Assembly: GCF_964213995.1 (NCBI RefSeq)
Contig: NC_135808.1
Coordinates: 31,062,001-31,126,000, forward strand
From: Mustelus asterias
Lineage: Eukaryota
Reading direction: 5' to 3'
Length of the DNA stretch: 64,000 nucleotides
This document shows positions 1-63,561 of this stretch, piece by piece; position 1 is the first letter of the stretch, and every line of letters starts with the position of its first letter. The notes beneath the pieces are model-generated. The model worked only from the letters and a program-made list of their open reading frames with translations. It had not been told where the DNA came from and did not search any database. The translations under genes were made by a program, and so were the position numbers.

Positions 1-189
1 TGCTTACCCCAGTCCAACGCCGGCATCTCCACATCATGACCACCTTTTCAATGACCAGAAACTGTACAGCAGAATTTGGCTTTTGCGAAAATTCACAGAT
101 ACAATTGGTCATTAACGCCATGTACCATAAAACGACAGGTCTCCAGCATAGTGTATCATGGAAGCATAAAAAATATATTTGAGAATTTA

Positions 190-2215
190 TAAAGAGGCCA
201 TTCAGCCCATCGTGTCTGCACCGGCCAGAAAAGAGGAAGGAAAAGAACTAGCCACTCATTTTAATCCTACTTTCCAACACCAAATCCATAACGTTGCAGT
301 TTACAACACTTCAGATACAGATCCAAGTGTATTTTAAATGAGTTGAGAGGGTTTCGGCCTCGACTGCAAACATAGGCACTGAATTTCAAATGTGCACCAC
401 TTTAGAATCATGGAATCACACAGTGTGTAAAAGGCCCTACTGTCCATTGAGTCTGCACTGACACATGTGAAACACCTTACCTCCGAAGCCCATTTACCAG
501 CACTTGGCCCATTGCCTTGAATGTTATGACATAGAATCATAGAATCATAGAAACCCTACAGTACAGAAAGAGGCCATTCAGCCCATTGAGTCTGCACCGA
601 CCACAATCCCACCCAGGCCCTACCCCCATATCCCTACATATTTTACCCACTAATCCCTCTGACCTACCCACATGTCAAGTGATCATCCAGGTACTTTTTA
701 AAGTACATGAGGCAACCCGCCTCTACCCACTCCCAGGCAGCACATCCCAGACTGTCACCACTCTCAGTGTAAAAATGTTTTTTCTCACATCCTTCCTAAA
801 GCTCCTGCCCCTCACCTTGAACTTGTGTCCCCTCATGACTGACCCTTCAACTAAGGGATACAGCTACTCCTTATCCATTCATTTTCTGCTTTTACTGCAA
901 TTATATAGGGCTTTGGTGAGGTGACACCTGGAGTTTTGTGTGCAGTTTTGGTGTCCTTATCTGAGGAAGGATGTCCTTACTGTAGAGGGAGTGCAGAGAA
1001 GGTTTACCAGGCTGTTACCAATGGTAGGGAGTCCAGAACTAGGTGTTGTAGTTTGAGAATGAGAAGTAAACATTTTAAAACTGAGGTGAGGAGAAGTTTC
1101 TTCATCCAGAGGGTGATGAATCTCTGGAAATCACTATCACAGAAAGTAGTTGAGGCCAAAACTTCACCTGACTTCAAGAAGAAATTAGATATAGTTCTAG
1201 AAGACAAAGGGATCAAGGGATATGGTGGGAAGGGAGGATCAGGATATTGAATTTGTTGATCAGGATGAATGGTGGAGCAGGCTCGAAGGGCTGAAAGCCC
1301 TTCTCCTCCTTCTAGTTTTTATGTTTCTGTATTTCTCCTCTGTCCATGCCGCTCATAATCTTGTACACTTCAATCAGGTCAGCCCTCAGTATTCTCTGTT
1401 CCAATGAAAACAATGCAATCCTATCTAACTTCTCTTCATAACTTAAATGTTTCATCCCAAGCAGCATCTCCTCTTCACACCCTCCAAATGCAATCACATC
1501 GTTCTGATAATGTGTCGACCAGAAATGCACACAGCACACTTGCTGTGGCCTCAGCAAAGTCCTATACAACTCCAGCATGACCTCCCTGCTTTTATAATCT
1601 GTGCCTTCTGGGTGAAAAAGTTGCTCCACATGGCGATTCTAATCCTTCTACCAATCACCTTAAATCTATGCCCCCAAGTGACCCCTAAACTAGGGGACTA
1701 GTTTTTCCTGCCTCCCCTATAAAAACCCTTCATAACCTCATCCACCTCAATTAGGTCACCCCTTAGCTCCTATGTTCCAATAAAAACTATGCTAGCCCAG
1801 CCAATCTCTCCTCATAGCTGCACTTGTTATGCCACGACAACATTCTTGTATATCTCCCCTGCACTCTCTCCAGAGCAATTACTACTTTGCTGTGTTCTGG
1901 TGACCAGAACTGTTCACAATACTTTAGCTGTGACCTAACAAGTTTTATAAAGTGCTATCATGGCATTCCTGCTTTTGTATTCAATACCTCGCTCCATGAA
2001 GTAAAACATTATGTTTTCTTGACCAACTTGTCCACCTGTCCTGTCACCTTCAGCAACCTGCAGACATGCAGTCCAAGGTCTCTCACTTCTTCTGCCCCAC
2101 CCCATCCTCAATATTCCTCCATTTATTGAGCATTCCCTTGCTCTGTTTGTCCTTGTTAGCTGCATAAGCTCACACTTTTCCAAATTGAATTCTATTTGCT
2201 ACTCCCCTGCCCATT
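190..2215. mobile_element. Cluster of CR1 3' fragments (both strands) and a SINE tail (535-670)
   Basis: ORFs 921+, 1312- and 1935- show CR1 RT C-terminal motifs. Confidence 0.8.
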
Positions 2216-2285
2216 CAATCAAACCACTGATTGATTTGATTTGATTTACTGTTGTCAAATGTACTTGAATACAGTGAAAAGTACC

Positions 2286-2623
2286 GGCGGCACGGTAGCA
2301 CAGTGGTTAGCACTGCTGCTTCACAGCTCCAGGGTCCCGGGTTCGATTCCTGGCTCGGGTCACTGTCTGTGTGGAGTTTGCACATTCTCCTCGTGTCTGC
2401 GTGGGTTTCCTCCGGGTGCTCCGGTTTCCTCCCACAGTCCAAAGATGTGCGGGTTAGGTTGATTGGCCAGGTTATAAATTGCCCCTTAGAGTCCTGGGAT
2501 GCGTAGGTTAGAGGGATTAGCGGGTAAAATATGTGGGGGTAGGGCCTAGGTGAGATTGTGGTCGGTGCAGACTCGATGGGCCGAACGGCCTCCTTCTGCA
2601 CTGTAGGGTTTCTATGATTCTAT
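2286..2623 (+). mobile_element. HE1-type (V-SINE) tRNA-derived SINE, full length
   Basis: A box cacagtggttagc, B box ggttcgattcc, V core, LINE-like tail tctatgattc; aagta repeat on both sides. Confidence 0.92.
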
Positions 2624-3889
2624 AAGTATTGTTTCGTGTGCGCTATTCAGTCAAAATATTCTGCTCATAAAGTACATGGGGGGAAAGGGAAAAGGATGGG
2701 GTACAGAATATAGTGTTGCAGTTACAGGTAGGGTGAAGAGAAAGATCAGCTCAAAAGTCTGATGATAGGAGGGAAAAAGCTGTTCGTTTATCTGTTTTCA
2801 AACTTTTGTATCTTGTTTTCCCGGCAGAAGAAGGTCGAAGAGAGTATTTCTGATTGATATCATTCTGGTGTCGACAGCTATCCTCAACACGGCCATTTTT
2901 TGTGTATTCTGCAAATTCCCCAGTCGAGGCTCCATGTAAACTTCATATTTAATCTGTGCCTCCGGCTTAGTGACCAACAGTCAGGGTGACACTCTGGTGA
3001 CAGTGAAAGTTAAGCGAACCTCAGACACTTCTGATTGAACTTTCTGTCAGTCGATCTGCTATATGTATGCTTGCTGTCAGCCACCCATGTGTTACCGGAA
3101 ATCCTTCTCTTTGTAAATTGCACTTCTCTCTCATTATGCTTGCTGGAAACCACCCAGATAATGCAAAAATCGCCCCTCTAGATAATGGGGTCTCACTGGG
3201 TGCATTCTGTTCACTGCCACGGATCCAGCGAAATTGCTGCAATTCAGTACAGCTTTCCCTCGAAGCTACTGTGTCACAGCTGCTGTTATTCAAGCCCATG
3301 CTGCTCGTCTCCTCTTATGCCTGGCTACTTATGTCTATGTGACCAATGAATGATTAGACGACAGCTTGTGGGATGAATGTGCATCTCTGCTAAAGATGAT
3401 TATTTTATCAGAATCACAGAACAATGGAAACTTGCATTTGAGGCTAGCCACGGATCACACCCACATTACATTTGGAGAAGATTGAGAAGTGTCTTAACAC
3501 TTAAAGGATGACCAAAACTGTGTTCAAAAAACATTGCACAGGCATTGAAAAGTTTCAGGTTCAATACTACCCTGGGGAAGTAATAATTCTTCAAGATGTG
3601 CTACATAGGTGGGAAGGTGGGAGTGGGTTTAGGGTCGATTCACCCTTTGAGAGAGAAATAAAATCATGCTAATTCTTAATCCCAGTCAATGAGACCACAG
3701 TCGACGAAAACATTTGGGTAGTTTCAAAGTTAGAATTATATGAAATGCAAACAGCCCCATGGAGATAACATTCCCTGCTTAAAATAATGCAGTGTCTTGA
3801 GTTGAACTGAAAATTATTACTGATTAATTTTAACTGGAATGCATGGGTTTTCCAAAGCCCCTAGTTTGTGAAGCTGTTGGAAATACCAA

Positions 3890-5350
3890 GAATATTGTGT
3901 GCAGTTTTGGTCTCCTTTTCTGAGGAAAGATGTTCTTGCTGTCAAGGAAGTGCAGCTTCGTTTTACCAGGCTGATTCTGGGATGGCAGGACTGATGTATG
4001 ATGAGAGATTGACTTGGTTAGGATTGTTTTCTTTGGAGTTCAGATGAATGAGGGGGGAATCTCATAGAGACTTATAAAATTCTAACAGGACTAGACATGG
4101 TAGATGCAGGGAGGATGTTTCCGATGGTGGTTCTGTCCAGATCCAGGGCTCACAGTCTGAAGATCCGGGATTGACCATTTAGGACGGAGATGAGGAGAAA
4201 TTTCCTCACCCAAAGAGTAGTGAGCCTGTGCAATTCATTACCACAGGAAGTAGTTGAATGTATTCAAGAGGCGGGCTAGATATAGCACTTGGGGCAAATG
4301 GAATCAAACGTTATGGGGAGAAAGCAAGATTAGGCTATTGAGTTGGACGATCATCCATGATCGTGATGAATGGCGCAGCAGGGCCAAATGGCCTCTTCCT
4401 TCTCCTATCTTCTATAGAATCCCTACAGGGCAGAAGGAGGCCATTCGGCCCATCGCGTCTGTACAGATCACAATCACACTCAAGTCCTATTCACGTCACC
4501 ATACATATTTACCCTGCTAATCCCCCTGACACTAGGGTCAATTTAGCATGGCCAATACACCTAACCCGCACATCTTTGGACTGTGGGAGGAAACCGGAGC
4601 ACCCGGAGGAAACCCACGCAGACACGAGGAGAATGTGCAAACTCTGCACAGTCAGTGATCCAAGGCTGGAATTGAACCCGGGACCCTGGTGCTATGAGGC
4701 AGCAATGCTAACCACTGTGCACTGTGCTGCCCTTATGTTTCTAGGAAATCGTGCATTTCAAAGTGGTTACCGTGTCTCTCCCACCCAGGTGTGAAGGAGA
4801 GGGAGCCCTTGTGCTGCGCGGGTCCTTTAATATCACCTTCACCACATGTAACCCCTCCTCCCTCACCCCAGTCACTGGAACTGGTGATACACTGGTATTT
4901 AATATGACACAGTTTACAAGAATGTTGCCAGGGCTAGCTATAAGGAGAGACTGGAGAGGTTGGAGTCGTTTCCCTTGGAACAAAGACTTGATAGAGGTGT
5001 ACAAAATTATGAGGGGAAGAAATAGAGTGGCTAGGATAAAATTGTTTGCCTTTGTCAAGAATTCTAGGACCAGGAACATAGATTCAAGATCTGTGGCAGT
5101 AGGTGTCGAGGGGACATGGGGAAGAACGTTTTTACACAGAGGGTGGTGAGTTCTGGAATTTGTTGCCCGAATTGGGAATGGAGGGAGAAACCTTAAGATC
5201 TTCAGGTGAGGATCCAACTAACTTTTTAAGTGCTATAAACTTTGGCCAGGTGCGGGAAGGTGGTGTTAGAAAGGGCACCTGGGTGTATTCGGGCTGGTAT
5301 GGACAAGATGGGACGAATGGCCTCTTCTGTGCTGTAACTTTTCTATGGTT
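3890..5350. mobile_element. Two plus-strand CR1 3' ends flanking a minus-strand HE1-like SINE (4412-4733)
   Basis: FWSP/FFTQRVV-type sequence and V-SINE core. Confidence 0.8.
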
Positions 5351-5397
5351 CTGGGCCATTCGCACCCCCAAATATAAAAACACACGAGCGTCAGCAA

Positions 5398-5482
5398 TAC
5401 ATTTGGAGAAGATTGAGAAGTGTCTTAACACTTCAAGGATGACCAAAACTGTTCAAAAAACTTTGCCCAGGCATTGAAAAGT
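5398..5482 (+). repeat. 85-bp direct copy of 3467-3553
   Basis: Near-identical by direct comparison (3 substitutions, one 2-bp indel). Confidence 0.9.
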
Positions 5483-6007
5483 ATATATATATAAACACAC
5501 GAGTGTCAGCCGGCGCCATTCAAATCTGGCTGTTGGTTAATTGTTAGTCATCGGTTCTGGTGAGCCAATTAGTTGCTGAGTTTTTATTCACATTACAACA
5601 ACGAGTGAGTTTTAATAACACGCTTTTGGCTGCAAAAAGCTTCGAAATGGATCCGCCCACCATCGCACAACAAGGAGGGAGAAAGCATTTAACCCCCTTC
5701 CAGCGCCATGCACCACAGAATGTCTGACACGAAATGTAAATATAGATTGTAAATATAGCATGAAATGGCAAGTGTGGTGCGGAAGCCAGTGTGCCAAAAG
5801 AACCCGAAGTTTAGAGCAAATCACTCAACAGAGGACCTGTACCGTCCTGTAAGGTACGTTTTCACATTTTCTGAAGAATGTTTATGGGATGGAGTTGTAA
5901 AATACTTTGGGACGTCGGCGAAAAGTAAATGCAAGTGTTACGCCTGGAGCAAGGATAAACACATACACACACTGACACAGGGACACACACAGGCACAGGT
6001 ACACACA

Positions 6008-6147
6008 TAATAAAAGCAAATTACTGCGGATGCTGGAATCTGAAACCAAGAGAGAAAATGCTGGAAAATCTCAGCAGGTCTGGCAGCATCTGTAAGGGGA
6101 GAAAAGAGCTGACGTTTCGAATCCAAATGATTCTTTCTCAAAGGCAG
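6008..6147 (-). mobile_element. Penelope-derived mini-element, family B
   Basis: Matches 34198-34330; TSD caggtacacaca (5996, 6148). Confidence 0.75.
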
Positions 6148-6371
6148 CAGGTACACACACACGGAATCTGGGATAAATAACAGAAAATGCTGCAAGTGTA
6201 CAACAGACCAGTCTGACAGAAATCGCTCAGTTACACAGCTCAGTTCAGCACAGACTATTCCGTCCCCCATCCTGAAAACATCAGATGTGATCCACAAGCC
6301 TCTTGCAGTCGATGATCCCGGTAAGCCAGCGGGGTCGACATTCAATGAAGCAGCCGGAACAGGGTACTTAC

Positions 6372-6438
6372 CAACTGTTTGTACCCGATAGAAACACAGC
6401 GCAAGCGACAGAAACACTCCTTGCACTCCGCCTGCCAT
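6372..6438 (-). CDS. First coding exon (signal peptide MAGGVQGVFLSLALCFYRVQTV) of a secreted or membrane protein; candidate MHC/antigen-presentation gene
   Basis: ggaATGG Kozak context, hydrophobic core, 67 nt ending in a phase-1 G|gtaagt donor, CpG-rich surroundings. No convincing exon 2 found in the window. Confidence 0.7.
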
Positions 6439-6530
6439 TCCTCTCAGCGACCGACTGGGTAAGATTGGGACTCCGTGAAAAAAGGCGAGCTGAGCTTCAC
6501 TCACAAGTGGTGAGTGAGAGTCCCTCCCGT

Positions 6531-6573
6531 CCAATCGCAGTCAGAAATTGCGGAGCCGTCACTGGTTAGCAAG
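6531..6573 (-). promoter_or_regulatory. MHC-type X1-X2-Y promoter module
   Basis: Minus strand reads CTTGCTAACCAG-TGACG-(21 nt)-ATTGG, about 95-135 nt upstream of the leader ATG. Order and spacing match HLA class I/II promoters. Confidence 0.6.
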
Positions 6574-6689
6574 TGGTTCTCTCGCTGACTGGCTCACAGT
6601 CCAAAGTCTGCTTGTCGGGCCGGCGATAGGTGTGTAAAATAGTTTTTTCAAGGATCATGAGTAATATTATGATCAACACAATACCTCAG

Positions 6690-7255
6690 GATTCTCCGGG
6701 TTCCTCCCACACTCCAAAGATGTGCATATTAGGTGGATTCGCCATGCTAAATTGTCCCTTAGTGTCCCAAGATGTGTAGGTTACGCGGGGGCTGGGGGGG
6801 GGGGGGGGGCAGGGGGTAGTCATGGCAAATGTGCGGGGATAAGGGGAAGGGAGAGGCCCTGGGAAAGATATTCTGTCAGAGAATCGGTGCAGACTAGATG
6901 GGTCTAATGGCCCCTTCTATACTGTCGGGATTCTATTAATACACAAGAGCAACTGGATTTCAAATCATGGCAATTCTCACCCGCATGGGGAAATTTTAAC
7001 CCAATCCAAAAAATTAACCCAACAATTTCAAAGTTAAACAGAAAAAAAATAAAACCCCAGATCCAGTCCAAAGTCACAGTCCAAAGATGTGTGGGTTAGG
7101 TTGATTGGCCATGCTAAAGTGACCTCAGTGTTCGGAGAATTAGCAGGGTAAATATGTGGCGTTCTGGGAATAGGATCTAGGTGGGACTGTGGTCAGTGCA
7201 GACTCAATGGGCCGAATGACCTCCTTCTGCACTGTAGGGATTATATGATTCTATG
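6690..7255 (+). mobile_element. Two 5'-truncated HE1-like SINEs
   Basis: V core and tail sequence at 6690-6935 and 7075-7255. Confidence 0.8.
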
Positions 7256-36896: not shown

Positions 36897-37429
36897 TCAT
36901 ATTACTAAGTGGTGCAACTTAAGAGGCTCGGAATTTGTATCAGCATCACCCATATCAAGAGCAAAAAATGGAAAGAGCTTCTCGATGAATGTGTTAGTGT
37001 AAGTGGCAAGATGAGACATATCATCAGCATTGTAAAAAGACAATTGCCCTCGCTCATAGTCCAGGTAAACTCCGATAGTCGTGGGCTCCGCGATCAATTT
37101 GAGAATCTCATCAGTCGCATATTCATCTCCACCTGTCAACGACAGGGTCCAGTATCCATTTTCAGGGACAGGATCGATTTCACCCTTTCGATTGGCTGAC
37201 TCCGTTGCCACACCAACAACCCAGTCAGTGATGTCCCCCACCTCTACCTCCCAGTAATGTGTTCCCGTTGTGAACCCCTCTGATCCCAAGATGCAAGGGC
37301 ACTCATCGAAACTTTCCGGATTGCAATGAGTCGATACTTCCTCGTCAGTGGACTCCATGCTGGTCAGGTCATCAGATAGGAGAAGCTGAGGGTGTGCTGT
37401 GTCTGGGTCAAAGGTCAGTGGTGCTGGAA
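36897..37429 (-). CDS. TRIM exon 6: PRY-SPRY (B30.2) domain and stop
   Basis: Motifs LTFDPDTAHP, GTHYWEVEV, IGVYLDYERGQLSFYN, LFPFF. Phase-1 acceptor tttcctccaag, with an in-frame alternative AG 6 nt further on. TGA at 36897-36899. Confidence 0.95.
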
Positions 37430-37634
37430 CTTGGAGGAAATAAAAATACTGAAGTTAAGTACTACACACGAACAAATATAAACAATGGTTATTAATTTTT
37501 AGCAGGTCATTCTCATTTAATGGAAAAATGTGCCTTTCCAATTAAAAGCTAATACATGTTCCCTCAGGAAATTCAAGTTGGGTTTAAAATTAGCAGTATC
37601 CTCGCAGTTATAGGCCCCAACAAATTTCAATTGC

Positions 37635-40793: not shown

Positions 40794-43700
40794 AAAAAGG
40801 AGGAGGAGGCAGTAGTAATAGGGGACTCTATAGTGAGGGGGTCGGACAGGTGATTCTGTGGATGCAGACAAGAAACTCAGATGGTAGTTTGCCTCCCTGG
40901 TGCCAGGATCCGGGATGTTTCTGATCGCGTCCAAGATATCCTGAAGTGGCAGGGAGAAGAGCCAAAGGTCATGGTACATATTGGTACCAATGCCATAGGT
41001 AGGAAAAGGGAAGAGGTCCTGAAAGGAGAATATAGGGAGTTGGGAAGGGAGTTGAGAAGAAGGACCGCAAAAGTAGTAATCTCGGGATTGCTGCCTGTGC
41101 CACGCGACAGTGAGAGTAGGAATGGAATGAGGTGAAGGATAAATGCGTGGCTGAGGGATTGGAGCAGGGGGCAGGGGTTCAGGTTTTTGGATCATTGGGA
41201 CCTCTTTTGGGGCAGGTGTGACCTGTACAATAAGGACGGGTTGCACTTGAATCCCAGGGGAACAAATATCCTGGCGGGGAGGTTTGCTAAGGCTACTGGG
41301 GAGAGTTTAAACTAGTATGGTTGGGGGGTGGGAATCAAATTGAAGTGACTGGGAGAGAGGAGGTTAGCTCACAAATAGAGAAAGCTTGCCGACAGTGTGA
41401 GAGGGAGGATAGGCAGGTGATAGAGAAGGGGAGCATCAGACCGAAGTTTTGAAATGTGTCTATTTTAACATGAACAAAGTGGATGAGCTTAGAGCGTGGA
41501 TCACTACTTGGAAATATGATGTGGTGGCCATTACAGAGACTTGGATGACTCAGGGACAGGACTGGTTACTTCAAGTGCCGGGTTTCAGATGTTTCAGAAG
41601 GGACAGGGAAGGAGGCAAAAGAGGTGGGGGAGTGGCACTGTTGATCAGAGATAGTGTCACGGCTGCAGAAAAGATGGACACCATGGAGGGATTGTCTACG
41701 GAGTCTCTGTGGGTGGAGGTTAGGAACAGGAAGGGGTCAATAGCTTTACTGGGTGTTTTCTATAGGCCGCCCAATCGTAACAGGGATGTTGAGGAGCAGA
41801 TAGGGAAACAGATCCTGGAAAGGTGTAATAATAACAGAATTGTCGTGATGGGAGATTTTAATTTCCCAAATATTGATTGGAATCTCCCTAGAGTAAGGGG
41901 TGTAGATGGGGAGGAGTTTGTTAGGTGTGTTCAGGAGGGTTTCTTGACACAGTATGTAGATAAACCTACAAGAGGAGAGGGTGTACTTGATTTGGTATTG
42001 GGAAATGAACCTGGTCAGGTGTCAGATCTCTCAGTGGGAGAGCATTTTGGAGATAGTGATCATAATTCTATCTCCTTTACAATAGCATTGGAGAGAGATA
42101 GGATCAGACAAGTTAGAAAAGTGTTTAATTGGAGTAAGGGGAATTATGACGCTATCAGGCAGGAAATTGGAGGCTTAAATTGGAAAGAGGTTTTCTCAGG
42201 GAAATGTACGGAAGAAATGTGGCAAATTTTCAGGGAATATTTGTCTGGAGTTCTGCATAGCAACATTCCAATGAGACAGGGAAGTTATGGTAGGTTACAG
42301 GAACCGTGGTATACAAAAGCTGTAATGAATCTAGTCAAGAAGTAAAGAAAAGCTTACAAAAGGTTCAGGGAGCTAGGTAATGTTAGAGATCCAGAAGAGT
42401 ATACGGCTAATAGGAAGGATCTTAAGAAGGAAATTAGGAGAGCCAGAAGGGCTCATGAGAAGGCCTTGGCAGGCAGGATGAAGGAAAACCCCAAGGCATT
42501 CTACAAGTATGTGAAGAGCAAGAGGATAAGACGTGAAAGAATAGGACCTATCAAGTGTGACGGTGAGAAAGTTTGTATGGAACCGGAGGAAATGGCAGAG
42601 GTACTTAATGAATACTTTACTTCAGTATTCACTATGGAAAAGGATCTTGGTGGTTGTCGTGCAAACTTGCAGCGGACTGAAAAGCTTGAGCATGTAGATA
42701 TTAAGAAAGAGGATGTGTTGGAGCTTTTGAAAAGCATCAAGTTAGATAAGTCACCGGGACCGGATGAGATGTACCTCAGGCTACTGTGGGAGGCGAGGGA
42801 AGAGATTGCTGAGCCTCTGGCGATGATCTTTGCATCATCAATGGAGACGGGAGAGGTTCCGGAAGATTGGAGGATTGCGGGTGTTGTTCCTTTATTCAGG
42901 AAAGGAAGTAGAGATAGCCCTGGAAATTATAGACCAGTGAATCTAACCTCAGTGGTTGGTAAGTTGATGGAGAAGATCCTGAGAGGCAGGATTTATGAAC
43001 ATTTGGAGAGGTATAATATGATTAAGAATAGTCAGCATGGCTTTGTCAAAGGCAGATCGTGCCTTACGAGCCTGATTGAATTTTTTGAGGATGTGACTAA
43101 ACACATTGATGAAGGAAGAGCAGTAGATGTAGTATATATGGACTTCAGCAAGGCATTTGATAAGGTGCCCCATGCAAGGCTTATTGAGAAAGTGAGGGGG
43201 CATGGGATCCAAGGAGACATTGCTTTGTGGATCCAGAACTGGCTTGCCCACAGAAGGCAAAGAGTGGTTATAGATGGGTCATATTCTGCATGGAGGTCGG
43301 TCACCAGTGGAGTGCCCCAGGGATCTGTTCTGGGACCCTTACTCTTTGTGATTTTTATCAATGACCTGGATGAGGAAGTGGAGGGATGGGTTAGTAAGTT
43401 TGCTGATGACACAAAGGTTGGAGGTGTTGTGGGTAGTGTGGAGGGATGTCAGAAGTTGCAGCGAGACATTGATAGGATGCAAGACTGGGCGGAGAAATGG
43501 CAGATGGAATTCAACCCAGATAAGTGTGAGGTGGTTCATTTTGGCAGGTCAAATAGGATGGTGGAATATAATATTAATGGTAGGACTCTTGGCAGTGTGG
43601 AAGATCAGAAGGATCTTGGGGTCCGAGTTCATAGGACGCTCAAAGCAGCTGTGCAGGTTGAGGCTGTGGTTAAGAAGGCGTATGGTGTACTGGCCTTCAT

Positions 43701-44310
43701 CAATCGAGGAATTGAGTTTAGGAGTCGTGAGATAATGTTGCAGCTATATAGGACCCTGGTCAGACCCCACTTGGAGAACTGTGCTCAGTTCTGGTCGTCT
43801 CATTACAGGAATGATGTGGAAGCCATAGAAAGGGTGCAGAGGAGATGTACAAGGATGTTGCCTGGGTTGAGGAGCATGCCTTATGAGGATAGGTTGAGTG
43901 AGCTCGGCCTTTTCTCCTTGGAGAGACGAAGGATGAGGGGTGACCTGATAGAGGTGTATAAGATGTTGAGAGGTATTGATCGAGTGGACAGTCAAAGGCT
44001 TTTTCCTAGGGCTGAAATGGTTGCCACAAGAGGACACAGGTTTAAGTTGCTGGGGAGTAGGTACAGAGGAGATGTCAGGGGTAAGTTTTTCACTCAGAGG
44101 GTGGTGGGTGCGTGGAATGGGCTGCCAGCAACAGTGGTGGAGGCGGATTCGATAGGGTCTTTTAAGAGACTTTTAGATAAGTACATGGAACTTAGTAAGA
44201 TAGAGGGTTATAGGTAAGCCTAATAATCGCTAAGGTAGGACATGTTCGGCTCAACTTTGTGGGCTGAAAGGGCTTTATTGTGCTGTACTTTTTCTTTGTT
44301 CTATGTTTCT
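40794..44310 (+). mobile_element. Near full-length CR1/HER1-like LINE (ORF1 esterase fragment, ORF2 APE endonuclease + RT) in TRIM intron 3
   Basis: AVVIGDSIVRG esterase motif. APE ORF 41449-42345 and RT ORF 42466-44217 (QGSVLGP, FADD) are in the same frame, split by one TAA. Inserted within a minus-strand SINE fragment. Confidence 0.95.
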
Positions 44311-45422
44311 AACTCTCCAACAGAGCATCTTACCCAGGCCCTATCCCTGTAACCCCATGTATTTGTCCCGTTAATAAATAATGCAATCAGGAAATTGCAA
44401 TAGGGCATTGATAGATTAAATGAGTAAACTAAACTGTGATAAGTGGTGTCCAATGTGAGAAAATGGGAGACTATCCATTTTGGATGCAAGGAATATAAAT
44501 ACAAATATTTTTGAAATGTTAAGAAGCTATGAAGTGGATGACCAGAAAGATTCATGGATCTATGTCGGGAATTTACATAAAAGTTAGTAAAGAGTAAGGA
44601 AACAATTTAAAAACCCAATGAAATTTTGGGCTTTATCTCAAGGGGCATCAATACAGAAGATATTACGTTTATAAAGGCTTGGTTAGACTCCATGTGCAAT
44701 ATTAATGGACACAGTTATTAATGGACAGTTATGACACAGCATCTCAGCACAGGTATATTTGCCTTGAATCAGCTGTAGCACACATTCTCCATAATGATAC
44801 TCGAGCTGGTTAAATTATAAGGACGGTGACTTAGTTGTGGTGTTTAATATGATTAAATGATTTGACACGGTGCAGACTTCAGAACTAGAACGCCTAACCA
44901 TATAATTGAGACTGATAGTTTTACGTTTGGAAAGGATATCAAGAGATATGCAACCAAGGTGCAAAAATTGGTTTAAATTTCAGATCAGCCCTGATCTAAC
45001 TGAACAGGTTTGAAGGAATGAATGGTCCACTCAGGTTCACATGATCTGATCTGTAATCTCACACTGTGTTCACTTCCAAGTAACCACTTTCTACTTTCTA
45101 CTCTCATGTTTTGACACATTTCTATGTTGCTTGTGCATTAAAAATTCCTATGTGCACATCTCTGAGTCACACTGTAATTCCACCCTCCAGCCAGTGGGGG
45201 CAGTGCAGTGCCTCGGTTTTGTAGCAGGGCCTCTAAGAGGGGAATGGTGGAGCATGTTCTCTGCTCTAAAGACTCATTTCTTCCTAAATTGATCTAATTT
45301 GTGCTAATTAACCATAAATATTATTATTAATACATTACCTTAAAATAGTTTGAATTATATCTGTGCATACAGGCCATATTGTCCATTGCCCTGCTGCACC
45401 TGAAATCCACACTGCTGGCTTA

Positions 45423-47288
45423 AGGGGCTTCGGAGAGCTAGGAGGGGACATGAGAAGTCCTTGGCGGGTCGGATCAAGGAAAACCCCAAGGCTTTTTACT
45501 CTTATGTGAGGAATAAAAGAATGACCAGGGTGAGGTTAGGGCCGGTCAAGGACAGTAGTGGGAACTTGTGTATGGAGTCAGTAGAGATAGGCGAGGTGAT
45601 GAATGAATACTTTTCTTCAGTGTTCACCAAGGAGAGGGGCTATGTTTTTGAGGAAGAGAAGGTGTTACAGGCTAGTAGGCTGGAGGAAATAGATGTTCGG
45701 AGGGAGGATGTACTGGCAGTTTTGAATAAACTGAAGGTCGATAAGTCCCCTGGGCCTGATTAAATATATCCTAGGATTCTTTGGGAGGCAAGGGATGAGA
45801 TTGCAGAGCCTTTGGCTTTGATCTTTGGGTCTTCACTGTCCACGGGGATGGTGCCAGAGGACTGGAGAGTGGCGAATGTTGTTCCTCTGTTTAAGAAAGG
45901 GAATAGAAATGACCCTGGTAATTATAGACCGGTTAGTCTTACTTCGGTGGTTGGCAAATTGATGGAAAAAGTCCTTAGGGATGGGATTTACGACCATTTA
46001 GAAAGATGCGGATTAATCCGGGATAGTCAGCACGGATTCGTAAAGGGCAAGTCGTGCCTCACAAATTTGATTGAATTTTTTGAGGAGGTAACTAAGTGTG
46101 TTGATGAAGATAGGGCAGTTGATGTCATATACATGGATTTTAGTAAGGCGTTTGATAAGGTCCCCCATGGTCGGCTTATGATGAAAGTAAGGAGGTGTGG
46201 GATAGAGGGAAAGTTGGCCGATTGGATAGGTAACTGGCTATCTGATCGAAGACAGAGGGTGGTGGTGGATGGAAAATTTTCAGACTGGAGGCAGGTTGCT
46301 CGCAGAGTGCTACAGGGATCAGTGCTTGGTCCTCTGCTCTTTGTGATTTTTATTAATGACTTAGAGGAGGGGGCTGAAGGGTGGATCAGTAAATTTGCTG
46401 ATGACACCAAGATTGGTGAAGTAGTGGAAGAGGTGGAGGGCTGTTGTAGGCTGCAAAGAGACATAGATAAGATGCAAAGCTGGGCTGAAAAATGGCAAAT
46501 GGAGTTTAACCCTGATAAATGTGAGGTGATTCATTTTGGTAGGACTAATTTAAATGTGGATTACAGGGTCAAAGGTAGGGTTCTGAAGACTGTGGAGGAA
46601 CAGAGAGATCTTGGGGTCCATATCCACAGATCTCTAAAGGTTGCCACTCAAGTGGATAGAGCTGTGAAGAAGGCCTGTAGTGTGTTAGCTTTTATTAACA
46701 GGGGGTTGGAGTTTAAGAGCCATCGGGTTATGCTGCAACTCTACAGCACCTTGGTGAGATCACATTTGGAATATTGTGTGCAGTTCTGGTCACCTCACTA
46801 TAAGAAGGATGTGGAAGCGCTGGAAAGAGTGCAGAGGGATTTACCAGGATGCTGCCTGGTTTGGAGGGTAGGTCTTATGAGGAAGCTAGGGCTGTTCTCT
46901 CTGGAGTGGAGAAGGCTGAGGGGAGACTTAATAGAGGTTTATAAAATGATGAAGGGGATAGAAAGAGTGAACGTTCAAAGACTATTTCCTCGGGTGGATG
47001 GAGCTATTACAAGGGGGCATAACTATTGGGTTCATGGTGGGAGATATAGGAAGGATATTAGAGGTAGGTTCTTTACACAGAGAGTGGTTGGGGTGTGGAA
47101 TGGACTGCCTGCAGTGATAGTGGAGTCAGACACTTTAGGAACATTTAAGCAGTTATTGGATAGGCACATGGAGCACACCAGGATGATAGGGAGTGGGATA
47201 GCTTGATCTTGGTTTCAGATAAAGCTCGGCACAACATCGTGGGCCGAAGGGCCTGTTCTGTGCTGTACTGTTCTATGTTCTATGTTCT
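45423..47288 (+). mobile_element. 5'-truncated CR1 LINE (RT region and 3' end)
   Basis: ORFs 45461..45763 and 45812..47206 with RT motifs; (tgttcta)n tail. Confidence 0.95.
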
Positions 47289-47763: not shown

Positions 47764-48638
47764 TTTATCCATCCTTTAATTCCTTCTCCTCGTGGAAATT
47801 CAATAATGTTGCTGCTCATGCTGTCATTTCTAATGGAGCTGTTTATATCACTAGATGCCTATTAAGAAGAAGGAATGAACGATTCCACTGGTGTTGGGCA
47901 AAGGGCATCTGTTAAAATGCCAGGCTCTGGGTGACATTTTAACTGCCCGCCAATTTCTGACAAACAAATATGGTTGAAATTTCTCCTCCCATGACTGAGT
48001 ATCTACATTATTAATCTATTGAATTCACACTTGCTCATTCCCTCCAATCAAGAAGCTCAGTTTCAGCTTTCAATCTCCAAATATTTACTTTCTCTTCAAT
48101 AAACTGTAATCTTTGTATGAATCTCAAGTGAATTTAAGATTTAGACCATGCCCAGATCGGGTCAGCCGCTTTATTAGTCTAGGGACAGTTTTTGGATGCA
48201 GGATTCCTTCAGCTTTCCTCATGTCGATGCTGGGAGACATTGGGTGGGATTTTACGGTCCGAAGGTGGGTCCCCCAGCAGTGGGAGGGGCAAGCCGTGCA
48301 AAATACTGTAGCCATCGGTGTGACCAGAAGATCCCACTGGCAGCCAATGGCAAGCCACCTCTGCTGCCAAGGGGTTGTATGGGTGGGGGAGGGGGGAATC
48401 CCACTGATCATTTCCTCACTTATTGACCAAAATCCTCCTCAAATAATATTCTGTTACCAATAGTCAAGATTGGTCAAGATTCTCTGCAAATTTCTGTTAT
48501 AATCATGTGAAAATATGGCACGTTTTTGAAAAAACAGAAGCACTTTCCCTTTAACATAATCACCTGATCTCACTGATCATTCAAGTTACCTGGAACAGTG
48601 AGTTTGCATAGTGTTACAATGAGTTTGCATAGTGTTAC

Positions 48639-48872
48639 CTTGAGAAAAATGATGCTGTCTTCCTGGTGAATGACAGCCTGAAGGTTCGATATATCCTCTT
48701 TGAGGGACTTTAATTCTTCATCAATTGCTGCTAAGTTATTCTCCATTAATTGAAAATCTTCCCCTCGTTGATCCTTGAGTTTTTCAATCAAGCTTGTTTC
48801 TTTGTCTTGAAGATATTGACGGATTTTGGCAAATTGTTCAGAGATGTGTTGCTCCAGGGATCCTGTGAGTTC
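48639..48872 (-). CDS. TRIM exon 3 (coiled coil, ELTGSLEQHISEQFAKIRQYL...QEDSIIFLK)
   Basis: 234-nt phase 0-0 exon. Acceptor caacttag, donor AAG|gtaaca. Overlaps ORF 48570..48791. Confidence 0.92.
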
Positions 48873-61805: not shown

Positions 61806-62906
61806 GGAATGAAGGCATTGAAATGTTTGTAATATTCTCAGTACTGTGTTGAAGAACCTCAAAACGCATCTTAATCTCTGGAGAGAATGAGAATATCATT
61901 GCAATTTCCTGTTATAGCAACTTGAAATGTTTTTGTCATCTTTCAGAGAGTTTACGAATAAAGTATATATTTTCAAAAGTAGGTTTGTATTCTTTGTTCA
62001 TCTTTCTGTATTAAATTTGATCTGCCACACATCCGCCCATTCTGCCTGGTGTCTGTATCCTTGAAGTCTACTTCTCCTCACAGCTCACGAGGTGAGCAAG
62101 TTTCACGAGGTGCACAAATTGTGAAATTGCACCCTGCGCACACAATCTCAGAATTGCGCAGAAGGTGTGCGCACCAGCTCTACAAAGGGGCATGATGACT
62201 GAGTGCCATACTCCTGCCTTTTCCCCATAACTCTTACACTCAGGGCCTAGATCATTAACATGAGATCGAGAAATGGTCCAACCAGGGACCCTGCCGCCCA
62301 CCCAATTTTCCTGGGCCCTGCCTGAGGCACCCCACTACATACCCAACTCCACTCTAAAACTTCCTGTCAACGGACCAATTCCGTATGCAGGCTGCCATTG
62401 CCCCGTTTTATTCCATCCAATAAATACAAGCTGCTTTTTTTCCCTTTAATATAAGGTGCAAATGAAATAGACACGCACACAGTAAATGGAGATAACGACA
62501 GATGGGTGGGTACATAGAGGGCAAAGGAAAATACTTAGAGTTGTACATGCGGAAATAATGACAAAATAGCACGTTTTTAAAAGGCCCCAAAATATAGCGT
62601 CAGGTACGTCATTAAGCTGCAGATCAGCCCTGACAAAACTGACTTTAGCGTATTTGATGTGTTAACTGCATCTTGTACAATGTAATAATCCGCAATGATC
62701 TTGTACAATGTCAGTAATAATCCGCAATGATGCTTAAAGTTTAGTAATGGCAGCAAGTTTCTACACTATAAACCCACCCCATCTAAAATCTTATTGCGAC
62801 TGGATGGATAGTCTCCTGAGTAAATCCCATTAGTAATCACCTAATTTCTAAAGAGCCAGAACACCATATATCGTACCCGCGGTCGCCCCGGAACACTCCT
62901 TCTTAC

Positions 62907-63320
62907 CTTGTACTTTCTCACCGCGTCCGCCACGGGCAGGAAGCTGTGTCCTGAGTGTGAGGGTGAATCTCGACAAATGACACAGATCAGAGTCTGATCG
63001 TCCTCACAGAAGAGTTTCAGCTTCTCATCGTGTTCCTCGCAGTGAGAGCCCACCGCCTGTGGCGCCGGGTTCACTTCCAACTGTCTGGCTTTCTCACAGA
63101 GATTGGCCAACACCCTGGCATTTTTAAACGACCTCTGGGGGAAAACTGCCCGGCATTCCGGGCAGGAAAACTTCTTCCTCCGGCTTTCCCAACATTTCTC
63201 TATACAGGATTTACAGAAGTTGTGATCACAGTCCAGCCGCACCGGCTCCACAAACAGAGCCAGGCAGATGGAGCAGGTTAAATCCTCACTCAGAGTTAAG
63301 ACCTGCTTGTTAGCAGCCAT
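62907..63320 (-). CDS. TRIM family E3 ligase (RING-Bbox-CC-B30.2), coding exon 1: RING + B-box2
   Basis: ATG at 63320 in aacATGG context (the ORF-track start at 63341 is GTG). C3HC4 RING CSIC..CDHNFCKSC..CPEC and B-box CEEH..C..C..C..H..H. 414 nt, phase-0 donor AAG|gtaaga. Confidence 0.95.
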
Positions 63321-63343
63321 GTTCTCTGTACTGGAATCCACAT

Positions 63344-63358
63344 TTTCACTTTCATTTC
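63344..63358 (-). promoter_or_regulatory. ISRE/IRF element GAAA-T-GAAA-GT-GAAA upstream of the TRIM ATG
   Basis: Plus strand reads TTTCACTTTCATTTC, 24-38 nt upstream of the ATG. Matches the GAAAN(1-2)GAAA consensus twice. Confidence 0.7.
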
Positions 63359-63561
63359 TTCATTGATTGAAGGTCAAAGAGCAAATTAGCGAACATTTCT
63401 TCTTGCAATTAGGGGATGTGGGCTGGGCCAGGTTGTGGTGTTTCCAGGTATCTGTTGCTTTTGTCTTCGATGGTAGAGGTTGTGGATTTGGGGGGGTGAA
63501 AAACAGATGGGAATGTTGCTTCTGCAGAAAAATCACAAGACTGACCCACAGTGTGTGTGTA

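What the first reader, a model, noticed from the sequence alone, without database searches (positions are those of the whole stretch)
6372..6573. Signal-peptide exon under an MHC-style X1-X2-Y module, 30 kb from a TRIM gene
Seen: on the minus strand, an X1-like CTTGCTAACCAG, then TGACG, then ATTGG 21 nt later, upstream of a 67-nt phase-1 leader exon. Known: RFX/CREB/NF-Y modules in this order and spacing mark CIITA/NLRC5 targets (MHC I, MHC II, B2M, CD74), and B30.2 TRIM genes cluster in MHC regions. Inference: the 5' end of a shark MHC-pathway gene whose leader I cannot assign, possibly a non-classical class I, class II or W-category lineage. No convincingly spaced S box.
Basis: partly seen in the sequence, partly recalled or inferred. 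Interest (0 to 1): 0.8.

Follow-up and report, generated by a model that had tools for sequence, protein, structure and literature searches.

The report
Promoter of shark UGA immune gene
This is the promoter and first exon of UGA, an already named shark immune gene that likely displays fats rather than protein pieces, and it carries a weakened copy of the control motif found at most of this shark's other MHC genes, so it is likely switched on by the same proteins as in mammals.

Summary
The 67-nt leader exon (6438-6372) joins an MHC class I alpha-1 exon 18.5 kb away, outside the window. A contig from a related organism shows the join, with 28 of 29 leader-side letters matching. The five exons give NCBI protein P0001, which is 67% identical to nurse shark UGA, PDB 9CH4. 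It is single-copy, MHC-linked and keeps 5 of 9 peptide anchors, so it is neither class II nor W.

The X1-X2-Y module is more than chance. A pattern fitted on 5 sites finds 33 in 3.68 Gb (control 3), 29 of them inside the MHC. A matrix built without UGA scores the site 18.3 bits, reached in 1 of 360 control windows. It is the weakest of the leader-linked modules. A degenerate class I-type S hexamer sits at the right distance, which favours NLRC5 slightly. Binding is untested.

The scan found UGA before on neighbouring DNA and such modules in other sharks. Verdict: a known gene with an expected promoter. The fresh point is a CD1-like gene likely still under MHC enhanceosome control.

The parts
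6589..6594 (-). Degenerate S-like hexamer AGCCAG, 15 nt upstream of X1 (shark class I/B2M consensus AACYTG)
   Evidence: 3.95 bits on a matrix from 9 class I/B2M modules without UGA; 1.5% of window hexamers score as high; 4 of 4 class II modules score negative; the position was chosen after seeing the alignment
6562..6573 (-). X1-like box CTTGCTAACCAG (predicted RFX site)
   Evidence: in register with class II beta, class II alpha, UBA-type and B2M promoters of the same genome
6557..6561 (-). X2 box TGACG (CRE half-site, predicted CREB/ATF)
6531..6535 (-). Y box ATTGG (inverted CCAAT, predicted NF-Y), 21 nt after X2
   Evidence: other shark modules have 19-21 nt
6439..6515 (-). 5' untranslated part of exon 1 (at least this far; the start site is not mapped)
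   Evidence: contig 15 of run X3 covers 6515-6372 and stops at the donor
6372..6438 (-). Leader (signal peptide) coding exon of UGA, 67 nt, phase 1, MAGGVQGVFLSLALCFYRVQTV
   Evidence: P0001 starts with it; similar leaders in 6 orthologs; joined to alpha1
1..6371 (-). Start of the 18,536-nt intron 1 (donor GTAAGT at 6371-6366). The other exons lie left of the window at G000:C8 31049835-31049575 (alpha1), 31047615-31047340 (alpha2), 31046542-31046276 (alpha3), 31043382-31043278 (TM) and from 31034250 (tail, stop)
36897..37454 (-). PRY-SPRY (B30.2) exon of the neighbouring TRIM gene (open frame limits)
48573..48872 (-). TRIM coiled-coil exon (open frame limits; below the Pfam cut-off)
62844..63359 (-). 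TRIM RING and B-box exon (open frame limits)

Best explanation
This is the promoter and signal-peptide exon of the single-copy shark nonclassical MHC class I gene UGA, and its X1-X2-Y block likely docks RFX, CREB/ATF and NF-Y, which would recruit a co-activator, more likely NLRC5 than CIITA. Shown: motif and spacing, exon structure, gene identity, single copy, MHC location, and the same block before the leader exons of class I, class II and B2M genes of this genome. Shown in a related organism, just under the tool's 31-letter bridging rule: the leader-to-alpha1 splice. Inferred: protein binding, the choice of co-activator, and co-expression with B2M. Inferred from the nurse shark ortholog as described in a review, and from lost anchors plus a YxxV/I tail: the product pairs with B2M, passes through endosomes and presents lipids.
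For: Gene: a 3450-nt contig of run X3 covers alpha1 exactly, with loose ends equal to the leader end (28 of 29 letters) and the alpha2 start; run X1 continues unbroken. Five exons translate to the first 325 of 330 residues of P0001. Best PDB match is 9CH4, E 7e-128 against 6e-55 for the next, titled 'shark nonclassical MHC class I, UGA', 67% identity. 9CH4 reads identical by eye to Gcirratum_UGA alpha1-3 in the supplement of PMC10751288. P0001 and 6 orthologs form one branch, 100/99. Single copy: next alpha1 match 41%. Module: a tight pattern gives 3 hits in 3.68 Gb, all at MHC leader exons (control 3). A wider pattern gives 33 hits (control 3), 30 on C8 and 29 within 21.6-42.3 Mb; 20 of the 30 loci examined have a leader-like exon downstream. 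The B2M promoter has the same layout and the same TGCGATTGG end. RFXAP, RFX5 and NLRC5-type CARD domains are encoded in the genome. In mice the S box sets NLRC5 specificity (PMC4374748, passages), and UGA's hexamer fits the class I set rather than class II.
Against: No binding, reporter or start-site data. UGA's module is the weakest of the leader-linked ones (18.3 bits against 19.2-41.0; training sites score high by construction). Its S hexamer matches only 4 of 6 letters, and one class I module (43.40 Mb) scores just 0.82 even in-sample. The patterns were fitted on this site and four others, and 15 of the 33 hits are near-copies in one cluster. 10 of 30 loci have no leader exon. No ISRE was found at 6372-7200, and the only kB-like site (6708) lies in high-copy repeat DNA. 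The sister gene keeps an X-like core but no Y box. Run X3 is not on record as RNA and is another organism, and the joint has 29 letters on the leader side. The RFX5_N match contains one stop, probably an exon edge, which I did not check. Lipid binding rests on a review citing a personal communication (PMC12562908).
Confidence: 0.65

Rival explanations
1. The block is a decaying relic of an ancestral MHC promoter. UGA is driven by ordinary CREB and NF-Y sites in a CpG-rich promoter, without RFX or an NLR co-activator.
For: Lowest score among leader-linked modules. X1 starts CTT where nearly all others start CC. The S hexamer is degenerate. The sister gene has lost Y, and the single leader candidate examined for the UFA-like gene shows no module (best 2.8 bits), though that leader is doubtful. 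A module also sits in a CpG-rich promoter at C8:9.98 Mb with no MHC gene found. Mouse Cd1d is not among the NLRC5 targets named in the passages read.
Against: X1, X2, Y and their spacing are all intact, 135 nt upstream of the ATG. B2M, which should be enhanceosome-driven, scores almost the same (19.2). AACCAGTGAC is shared with the sister gene's promoter, whose lineage includes a ray, suggesting long retention.
Confidence: 0.2
2. The block is functional but recruits CIITA, so that UGA is co-expressed with class II in antigen-presenting cells, fitting an endosomal lipid presenter.
For: The X2 TGACG and 20-21 nt spacing are shared with the class II beta promoter. The YxxV/I tail (4 of 7 orthologs) suggests endosomal traffic, as for CD1 (motif recalled; endosomal targeting).
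Against: The hexamer at -21 to -16 scores 3.95 on the class I matrix while all 4 class II modules score negative. In mice X boxes are interchangeable and S decides. I did not search for CIITA in this genome.
Confidence: 0.13
3. The exon is the 5' end of a class II, W-category or unrelated gene, or it does not belong to the class I exons 18.5 kb away.
For: The join is seen only in one contig of another organism, with 29 letters on the leader side.
Against: P0001 and 6 orthologs start with this leader type. Phases and frame fit. No other Ig-type exon was seen between leader and alpha1. Class II leaders of this genome are different. [quoted passage not shown]
Confidence: 0.02

Closest known systems
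Elasmobranch MHC class Ib UGA (nurse shark, PDB 9CH4; Gcirratum_UGA and Lerinacea_UGA in Supplemental File 10 of PMC10751288; PMC12562908)
   Same: 67% identity over 268 residues; single copy; MHC-linked; same groove signatures (AGFHG, YFKxLLExDC).
   Different: Only species-level divergence. I found no description of the UGA promoter in the papers searched.
Mammalian SXY module of class I and B2m promoters, bound by RFX/CREB/NF-Y and NLRC5 (PMC4374748, PMC7922096; passages)
   Same: X1-X2-Y order; 21-nt X2-Y gap (paper: 20-22 bp X to Y); a conserved hexamer 15 nt upstream (paper: S within 16 bp; its box edges are in figures I could not see); placed just upstream of exon 1.
   Different: S is degenerate here; no ISRE found; untested. 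The mouse targets named are classical and 'young/middle-aged' nonclassical genes, not CD1-like ones.
Mammalian class II SXY module (CIITA)
   Same: X1-X2-Y block nearly interchangeable with the shark class II beta one.
   Different: Shark class II modules lack the AACYTG-type hexamer that UGA partly keeps.
CD1 family
   Same: Nonclassical, single or low copy, several anchors lost, short basic tail ending YxxV/I; the review reports CD1d-like lipids for UFA and UGA.
   Different: UGA lies inside the MHC and has an X-Y promoter. By sequence it scores higher to MR1 and classical class I; no CD1 chain is among the top 60. Orthology was not tested.

Membership tests
Elasmobranch UGA | Sequence orthology to named UGA | tested here: met
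   9CH4, 67%; 9CH4 equals Gcirratum_UGA, read by eye; 7 of 7 orthologs on one branch, 100/99; 9CH4 itself not in the tree
Elasmobranch UGA | Single or low copy | tested here: met
   1 of 34 alpha1 matches is above 41% identity, the gene itself
Elasmobranch UGA | MHC-linked | tested here: met
   140 of 140 PF00129 matches lie on C8; B2M at 33.79 Mb; class II alpha at 34.27 and 34.54 Mb
Elasmobranch UGA | Binds lipids | not testable with these tools
   review statement only; my model had pLDDT under 50 over residues 1-90 and was not used for the groove
Classical class Ia (UAA) | Conserved peptide-terminus anchors (7, 59, 84, 143, 146, 147, 159, 167, 171; numbering recalled) | tested here: not met
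   5 of 9 kept (Y7, Y59, K146, W147, Y171); E84, L143, L159, L167. Read by eye via the HLA-A2/UGA rows,
MHC class II or W-category | Two-domain alpha or beta chain | tested here: not met
   one chain with alpha1, alpha2, alpha3, TM
SXY enhanceosome module | X1, X2, Y in order with constrained spacing, upstream of exon 1 | tested here: met
SXY enhanceosome module | S box about 16 bp upstream of X | tested here: inconclusive
   4 of 6 letters, top 1.5% of hexamers, position chosen after the fact, training modules partly paralogous
SXY enhanceosome module | Trans-acting factors encoded | tested here: met
   RFXAP domain, RFX5_N (one stop inside the match), NLRC5-type CARD; CIITA, RFXANK, CREB and NF-Y not searched
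SXY enhanceosome module | Bound by RFX/CREB/NF-Y and activated by NLRC5 or CIITA | not testable with these tools
   needs reporter or ChIP
SXY enhanceosome module | Conserved in orthologous promoters | not testable with these tools
   no other shark genome is held (no relatives); X3 contigs do not reach the block
CD1 | Tyrosine-based endosomal sorting tail (motif recalled) | tested here: inconclusive
   YNAV, YNVV, YNTV, YNVI in 4 of 7 orthologs; the other 3 records end differently; last exon located; function untested
CD1 | Orthology to tetrapod CD1 | not tested
   no CD1 sequences were available as stored proteins

The most novel reading that the evidence does not exclude
A CD1-like lipid presenter about as old as jawed vertebrates is still wired into the MHC enhanceosome with a class I-type S box, while shark class II promoters lack that S. 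The NLRC5/CIITA split by S box would then predate the shark-human divergence, and lipid presentation would have begun inside the class I regulon, leaving it only later (as the Y-less sister gene and mammalian CD1 suggest).
Probability: 0.3. Interest if true: 0.6.

Novelty: new member of a known kind. Interest (0 to 1): 0.3.

Why it matters
The gene is known and annotated, and an MHC-type promoter on an MHC gene is expected. Two things are still useful. First, UGA is described as CD1-like, and its promoter gives a 65-nt test of whether ancient lipid presenters were run by RFX and NLRC5. Second, the same search maps the module across this shark's MHC and shows an S-like hexamer in class I and B2M promoters but not class II, which makes the age of the NLRC5/CIITA division testable with simple reporters.

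Tried and rejected
the pattern was out of register and missed the site itself (2 hits, control 7); it was replaced. PF00969 found no class II beta exon, so beta genes were recognised by leader and beta-2 exon instead; no RNA holder listed, which is no evidence on expression. Pfam scans of 220 of 281 open frames near modules without a leader found B2M and retroelements but no gene for the modules at 9.98, 34.91, 41.48, 41.52, 42.33 Mb, C9 or C17; the AlphaFold model was poor (mean pLDDT 57, alpha1 under 50) and was used only to get PDB titles; the three-way promoter alignment was uninformative for the sister gene. '9CH4' gave only irrelevant papers. The UDA and UEA papers are not held, so anything they or their supplements say on promoters or UGA is unseen. 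bioRxiv supplements were closed, and the figures of PMC4374748 (motif logos) could not be seen. No primary UGA paper and no shark SXY paper appeared; that library lacks most subscription journals. UDA, UFA, UBA, UAA and W were considered and rejected by comparison with the labelled supplement rows.

Full report
Observation. All stated elements are present at the stated places on the minus strand: X1-like CTTGCTAACCAG 6573-6562, TGACG 6561-6557, ATTGG 6535-6531, ATG 6438, donor at 6371. The exon is 67 nt, phase 1, and encodes MAGGVQGVFLSLALCFYRVQTV. The promoter is unique in the genome at DNA level (1 match) and relatively CpG-rich (0.66-0.75 against 0.31). The TRIM gene is real and on the same strand; its PRY-SPRY exon is 30,324 nt from the module.

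The gene. The window is G000:C8:31062001-31126000. In 200 kb fetched to its left, a motif scan found one convincing C1 domain among 5 motif hits. Open-frame reading then gave alpha1, alpha2, alpha3 and TM exons with canonical splice sites. Intron 1 is 18,536 nt. The five exons translate to the first 325 residues of NCBI protein P0001 (330 aa, labelled Mustelus asterias by the tool), and a last exon at 31034250 adds the tail. In run X3 (another organism, kind not on record) one contig covers 6515-6372 and stops at the donor, while another runs into the intron. A 3450-nt contig covers alpha1 exactly; its loose ends are the leader end (28 of 29 letters match window 6373-6401) and the alpha2 start, whereas run X1 continues unbroken. 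This is a spliced transcript in a relative. The leader side is 29 letters, just under the tool's 31-letter rule for a bridge.

Which lineage. The alpha2 exon found 7 proteins among 60 candidates: P0001 and one ortholog in each of six other sharks, 64-76% identical. The best solved structure is 9CH4 (E 7e-128; next 6e-55), titled 'shark nonclassical MHC class I, UGA', 67% identical. Its sequence reads identical by eye to the Gcirratum_UGA rows in the supplement of PMC10751288 (supplement parts 97 and 98 read). The gene is single-copy (next alpha1 match 41%) and lies inside the MHC: all 140 class I domain matches are on C8, B2M is at 33.79 Mb and class II alpha at 34.27 and 34.54 Mb. Five of nine peptide anchors are kept (numbering recalled, read by eye). 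The tail ends YNAV, with YxxV/I in 4 of 7 orthologs, which resembles CD1 sorting signals (recalled). PMC12562908 (passages and section 2.1) calls UFA and UGA CD1-like, single or low copy and lipid-binding, citing a personal communication.

Is the module more than chance? A pattern built from this site and a recalled consensus gave 3 hits in 3.68 Gb (control 3): this site, a class II beta promoter and a class I-type leader at 39.69 Mb. A wider pattern fitted on 5 sites gave 33 hits against 3 for the control: 30 on C8 and 29 within 21.6-42.3 Mb. Of the 28 hits not used for fitting, 24 are in that interval, and 15 of those are near-copies in one UBA-type cluster. Of 30 loci examined, 20 have a leader-like exon within 700 nt and 10 do not. 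A matrix from 6 other promoters, scanned over 1.02 Mb, also recovered the B2M promoter and further class I promoters. It scores UGA at 18.3 bits, a level met 19 times in 10 Mb of simulated DNA and in 1 of 360 flanking 1-kb windows. UGA is the weakest leader-linked module; B2M is next at 19.2 and shares its TGCGATTGG end. The test is partly circular because the training sites came from patterns that had to match UGA.

The S box. Nine class I and B2M modules with a leader exon show a conserved hexamer, consensus AACYTG, at -21 to -16 from X1. The 4 class II modules do not, and all score negative. UGA has AGCCAG there, 3.95 bits, matched or exceeded by 1.5% of window hexamers. The window was chosen after looking, the nine are partly paralogous, and one scores only 0.82, so this is a hint. 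In mice S lies within 16 bp of X and Y 20-22 bp from X, and S decides NLRC5 specificity (PMC4374748, passages). No ISRE was found at 6372-7200; a kB-like site at 6708 lies in high-copy repeat DNA.

Mechanism. By PMC7922096 (passages), X1 binds RFX5/RFXAP/RFXANK, X2 binds CREB/ATF1, and the assembled complex with NF-Y recruits NLRC5 or CIITA. The genome encodes RFXAP, RFX5_N and NLRC5-type CARD domains; CIITA was not searched. I put a working enhanceosome at about 0.78, split 0.65 for an NLRC5-type reading and 0.13 for CIITA, with 0.2 for a relic driven by CREB and NF-Y alone. No step of binding or activation is shown here.

Context. 28 kb right of the window, beyond the TRIM, lies a second single-copy class I gene (P0008), 36% identical to UGA. 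It is sister to UGA (97/92) and more conserved across sharks and a ray. Its leader is at 31163742; 174 nt upstream it shares AACCAGTGAC with UGA's X1-X2 but has no Y box at the right distance (7.0 bits). This suggests the X box is old and that members of this clade can lose the module.

Known versus new. The gene is annotated, named and crystallised, so this is an ortholog of a known lineage. I found no paper on shark SXY modules or the UGA promoter (search listings only), and PMC10751288 has no occurrence of promoter, CIITA or NLRC5 in its main text. The UDA and UEA papers were not held and the library lacks most subscription journals, so absence from print is not shown. Earlier notes of this scan reached UGA on the neighbouring DNA, the sister gene, and X-Y modules in other sharks; these are unchecked AI notes and are not counted as support.

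Verdict. A real feature, correctly read as a nonclassical class I promoter, but of a known gene and with an expected motif. Interest 0.3; the most novel reading has probability 0.3 and interest 0.6 if true.

Noticed in passing
G000:C8:31163742-31149224, minus (L059, L060); protein P0008: A second single-copy class I gene, sister to UGA (97/92) and more conserved (alpha1+alpha2 87% against 73% for the same species pair), also in a ray. It matches no labelled row of the PMC10751288 supplement well; by eye its alpha3 resembles the row labelled Callorhinchus UGA. NCBI's model P0008 misses the leader exon at 31163742. X-like core present, Y box absent.
   Followed up: partly
G000:C8:21.6-43.4 Mb: Map of X1-X2-Y modules at UBA-type, UEA/UDA-region, class II alpha and beta, B2M and classical-type promoters; an S-like AACYTG hexamer in class I and B2M modules only.
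   Followed up: partly
G000:C8:33808606, 33908865, 34906699, 34916470, 41472036, 41479311, 41518342, 42325359, 42410637; C9:118900712: Strong modules with no leader exon found nearby; candidates for distal enhancers or promoters with non-coding first exons. The 33.81 Mb one lies 14 kb past B2M exon 2, facing it.
   Followed up: partly
L120 (G000:C8:34906657 region): Just downstream of the module are adjacent ISRE-like, GAS-like and kB-like sites (read by eye); no gene was identified.
   Followed up: no
L098 (G000:C8:9978274-9978316): A module in a CpG-rich promoter 11 Mb outside the MHC, with a likely non-coding first exon; gene not identified.
   Followed up: partly
L056, L081 (G000:C8:39686368-39687085): A class I promoter and leader exon followed directly by a partial alpha3 exon, with no alpha1 or alpha2 between them: a truncated UEA/UCA-like gene.
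   Followed up: partly
L154, L155 (G000:C8:41601637-41592946): A classical-type class I gene with two tandem modules 105 nt apart and alpha2 anchors intact, but its alpha1 appears frameshifted in this assembly.
   Followed up: no
L160, L161 (G000:C8:3661133-3663119): A UEA/UCA-like class I gene 18 Mb from the other class I genes on the same chromosome.
   Followed up: no
L093, L095 (G000:C8:32285859 minus, 32296134 plus): Two related promoters with near-identical leaders lie head to head, one 6 kb upstream of a UDA-like alpha1 and the other 11 kb upstream of a UEA-like alpha1; assignment is by position only.
   Followed up: no
L140 (G000:C8:41461800-41470000): An endogenous retrovirus-like element with long open pol, integrase and env-like frames inside the MHC (Pfam); observed only.
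   Followed up: no
window 41413-44217 and 45404-47206: Long LINE-type reverse transcriptase frames, the first nearly uninterrupted, in TRIM introns (read; family not scanned).
   Followed up: no
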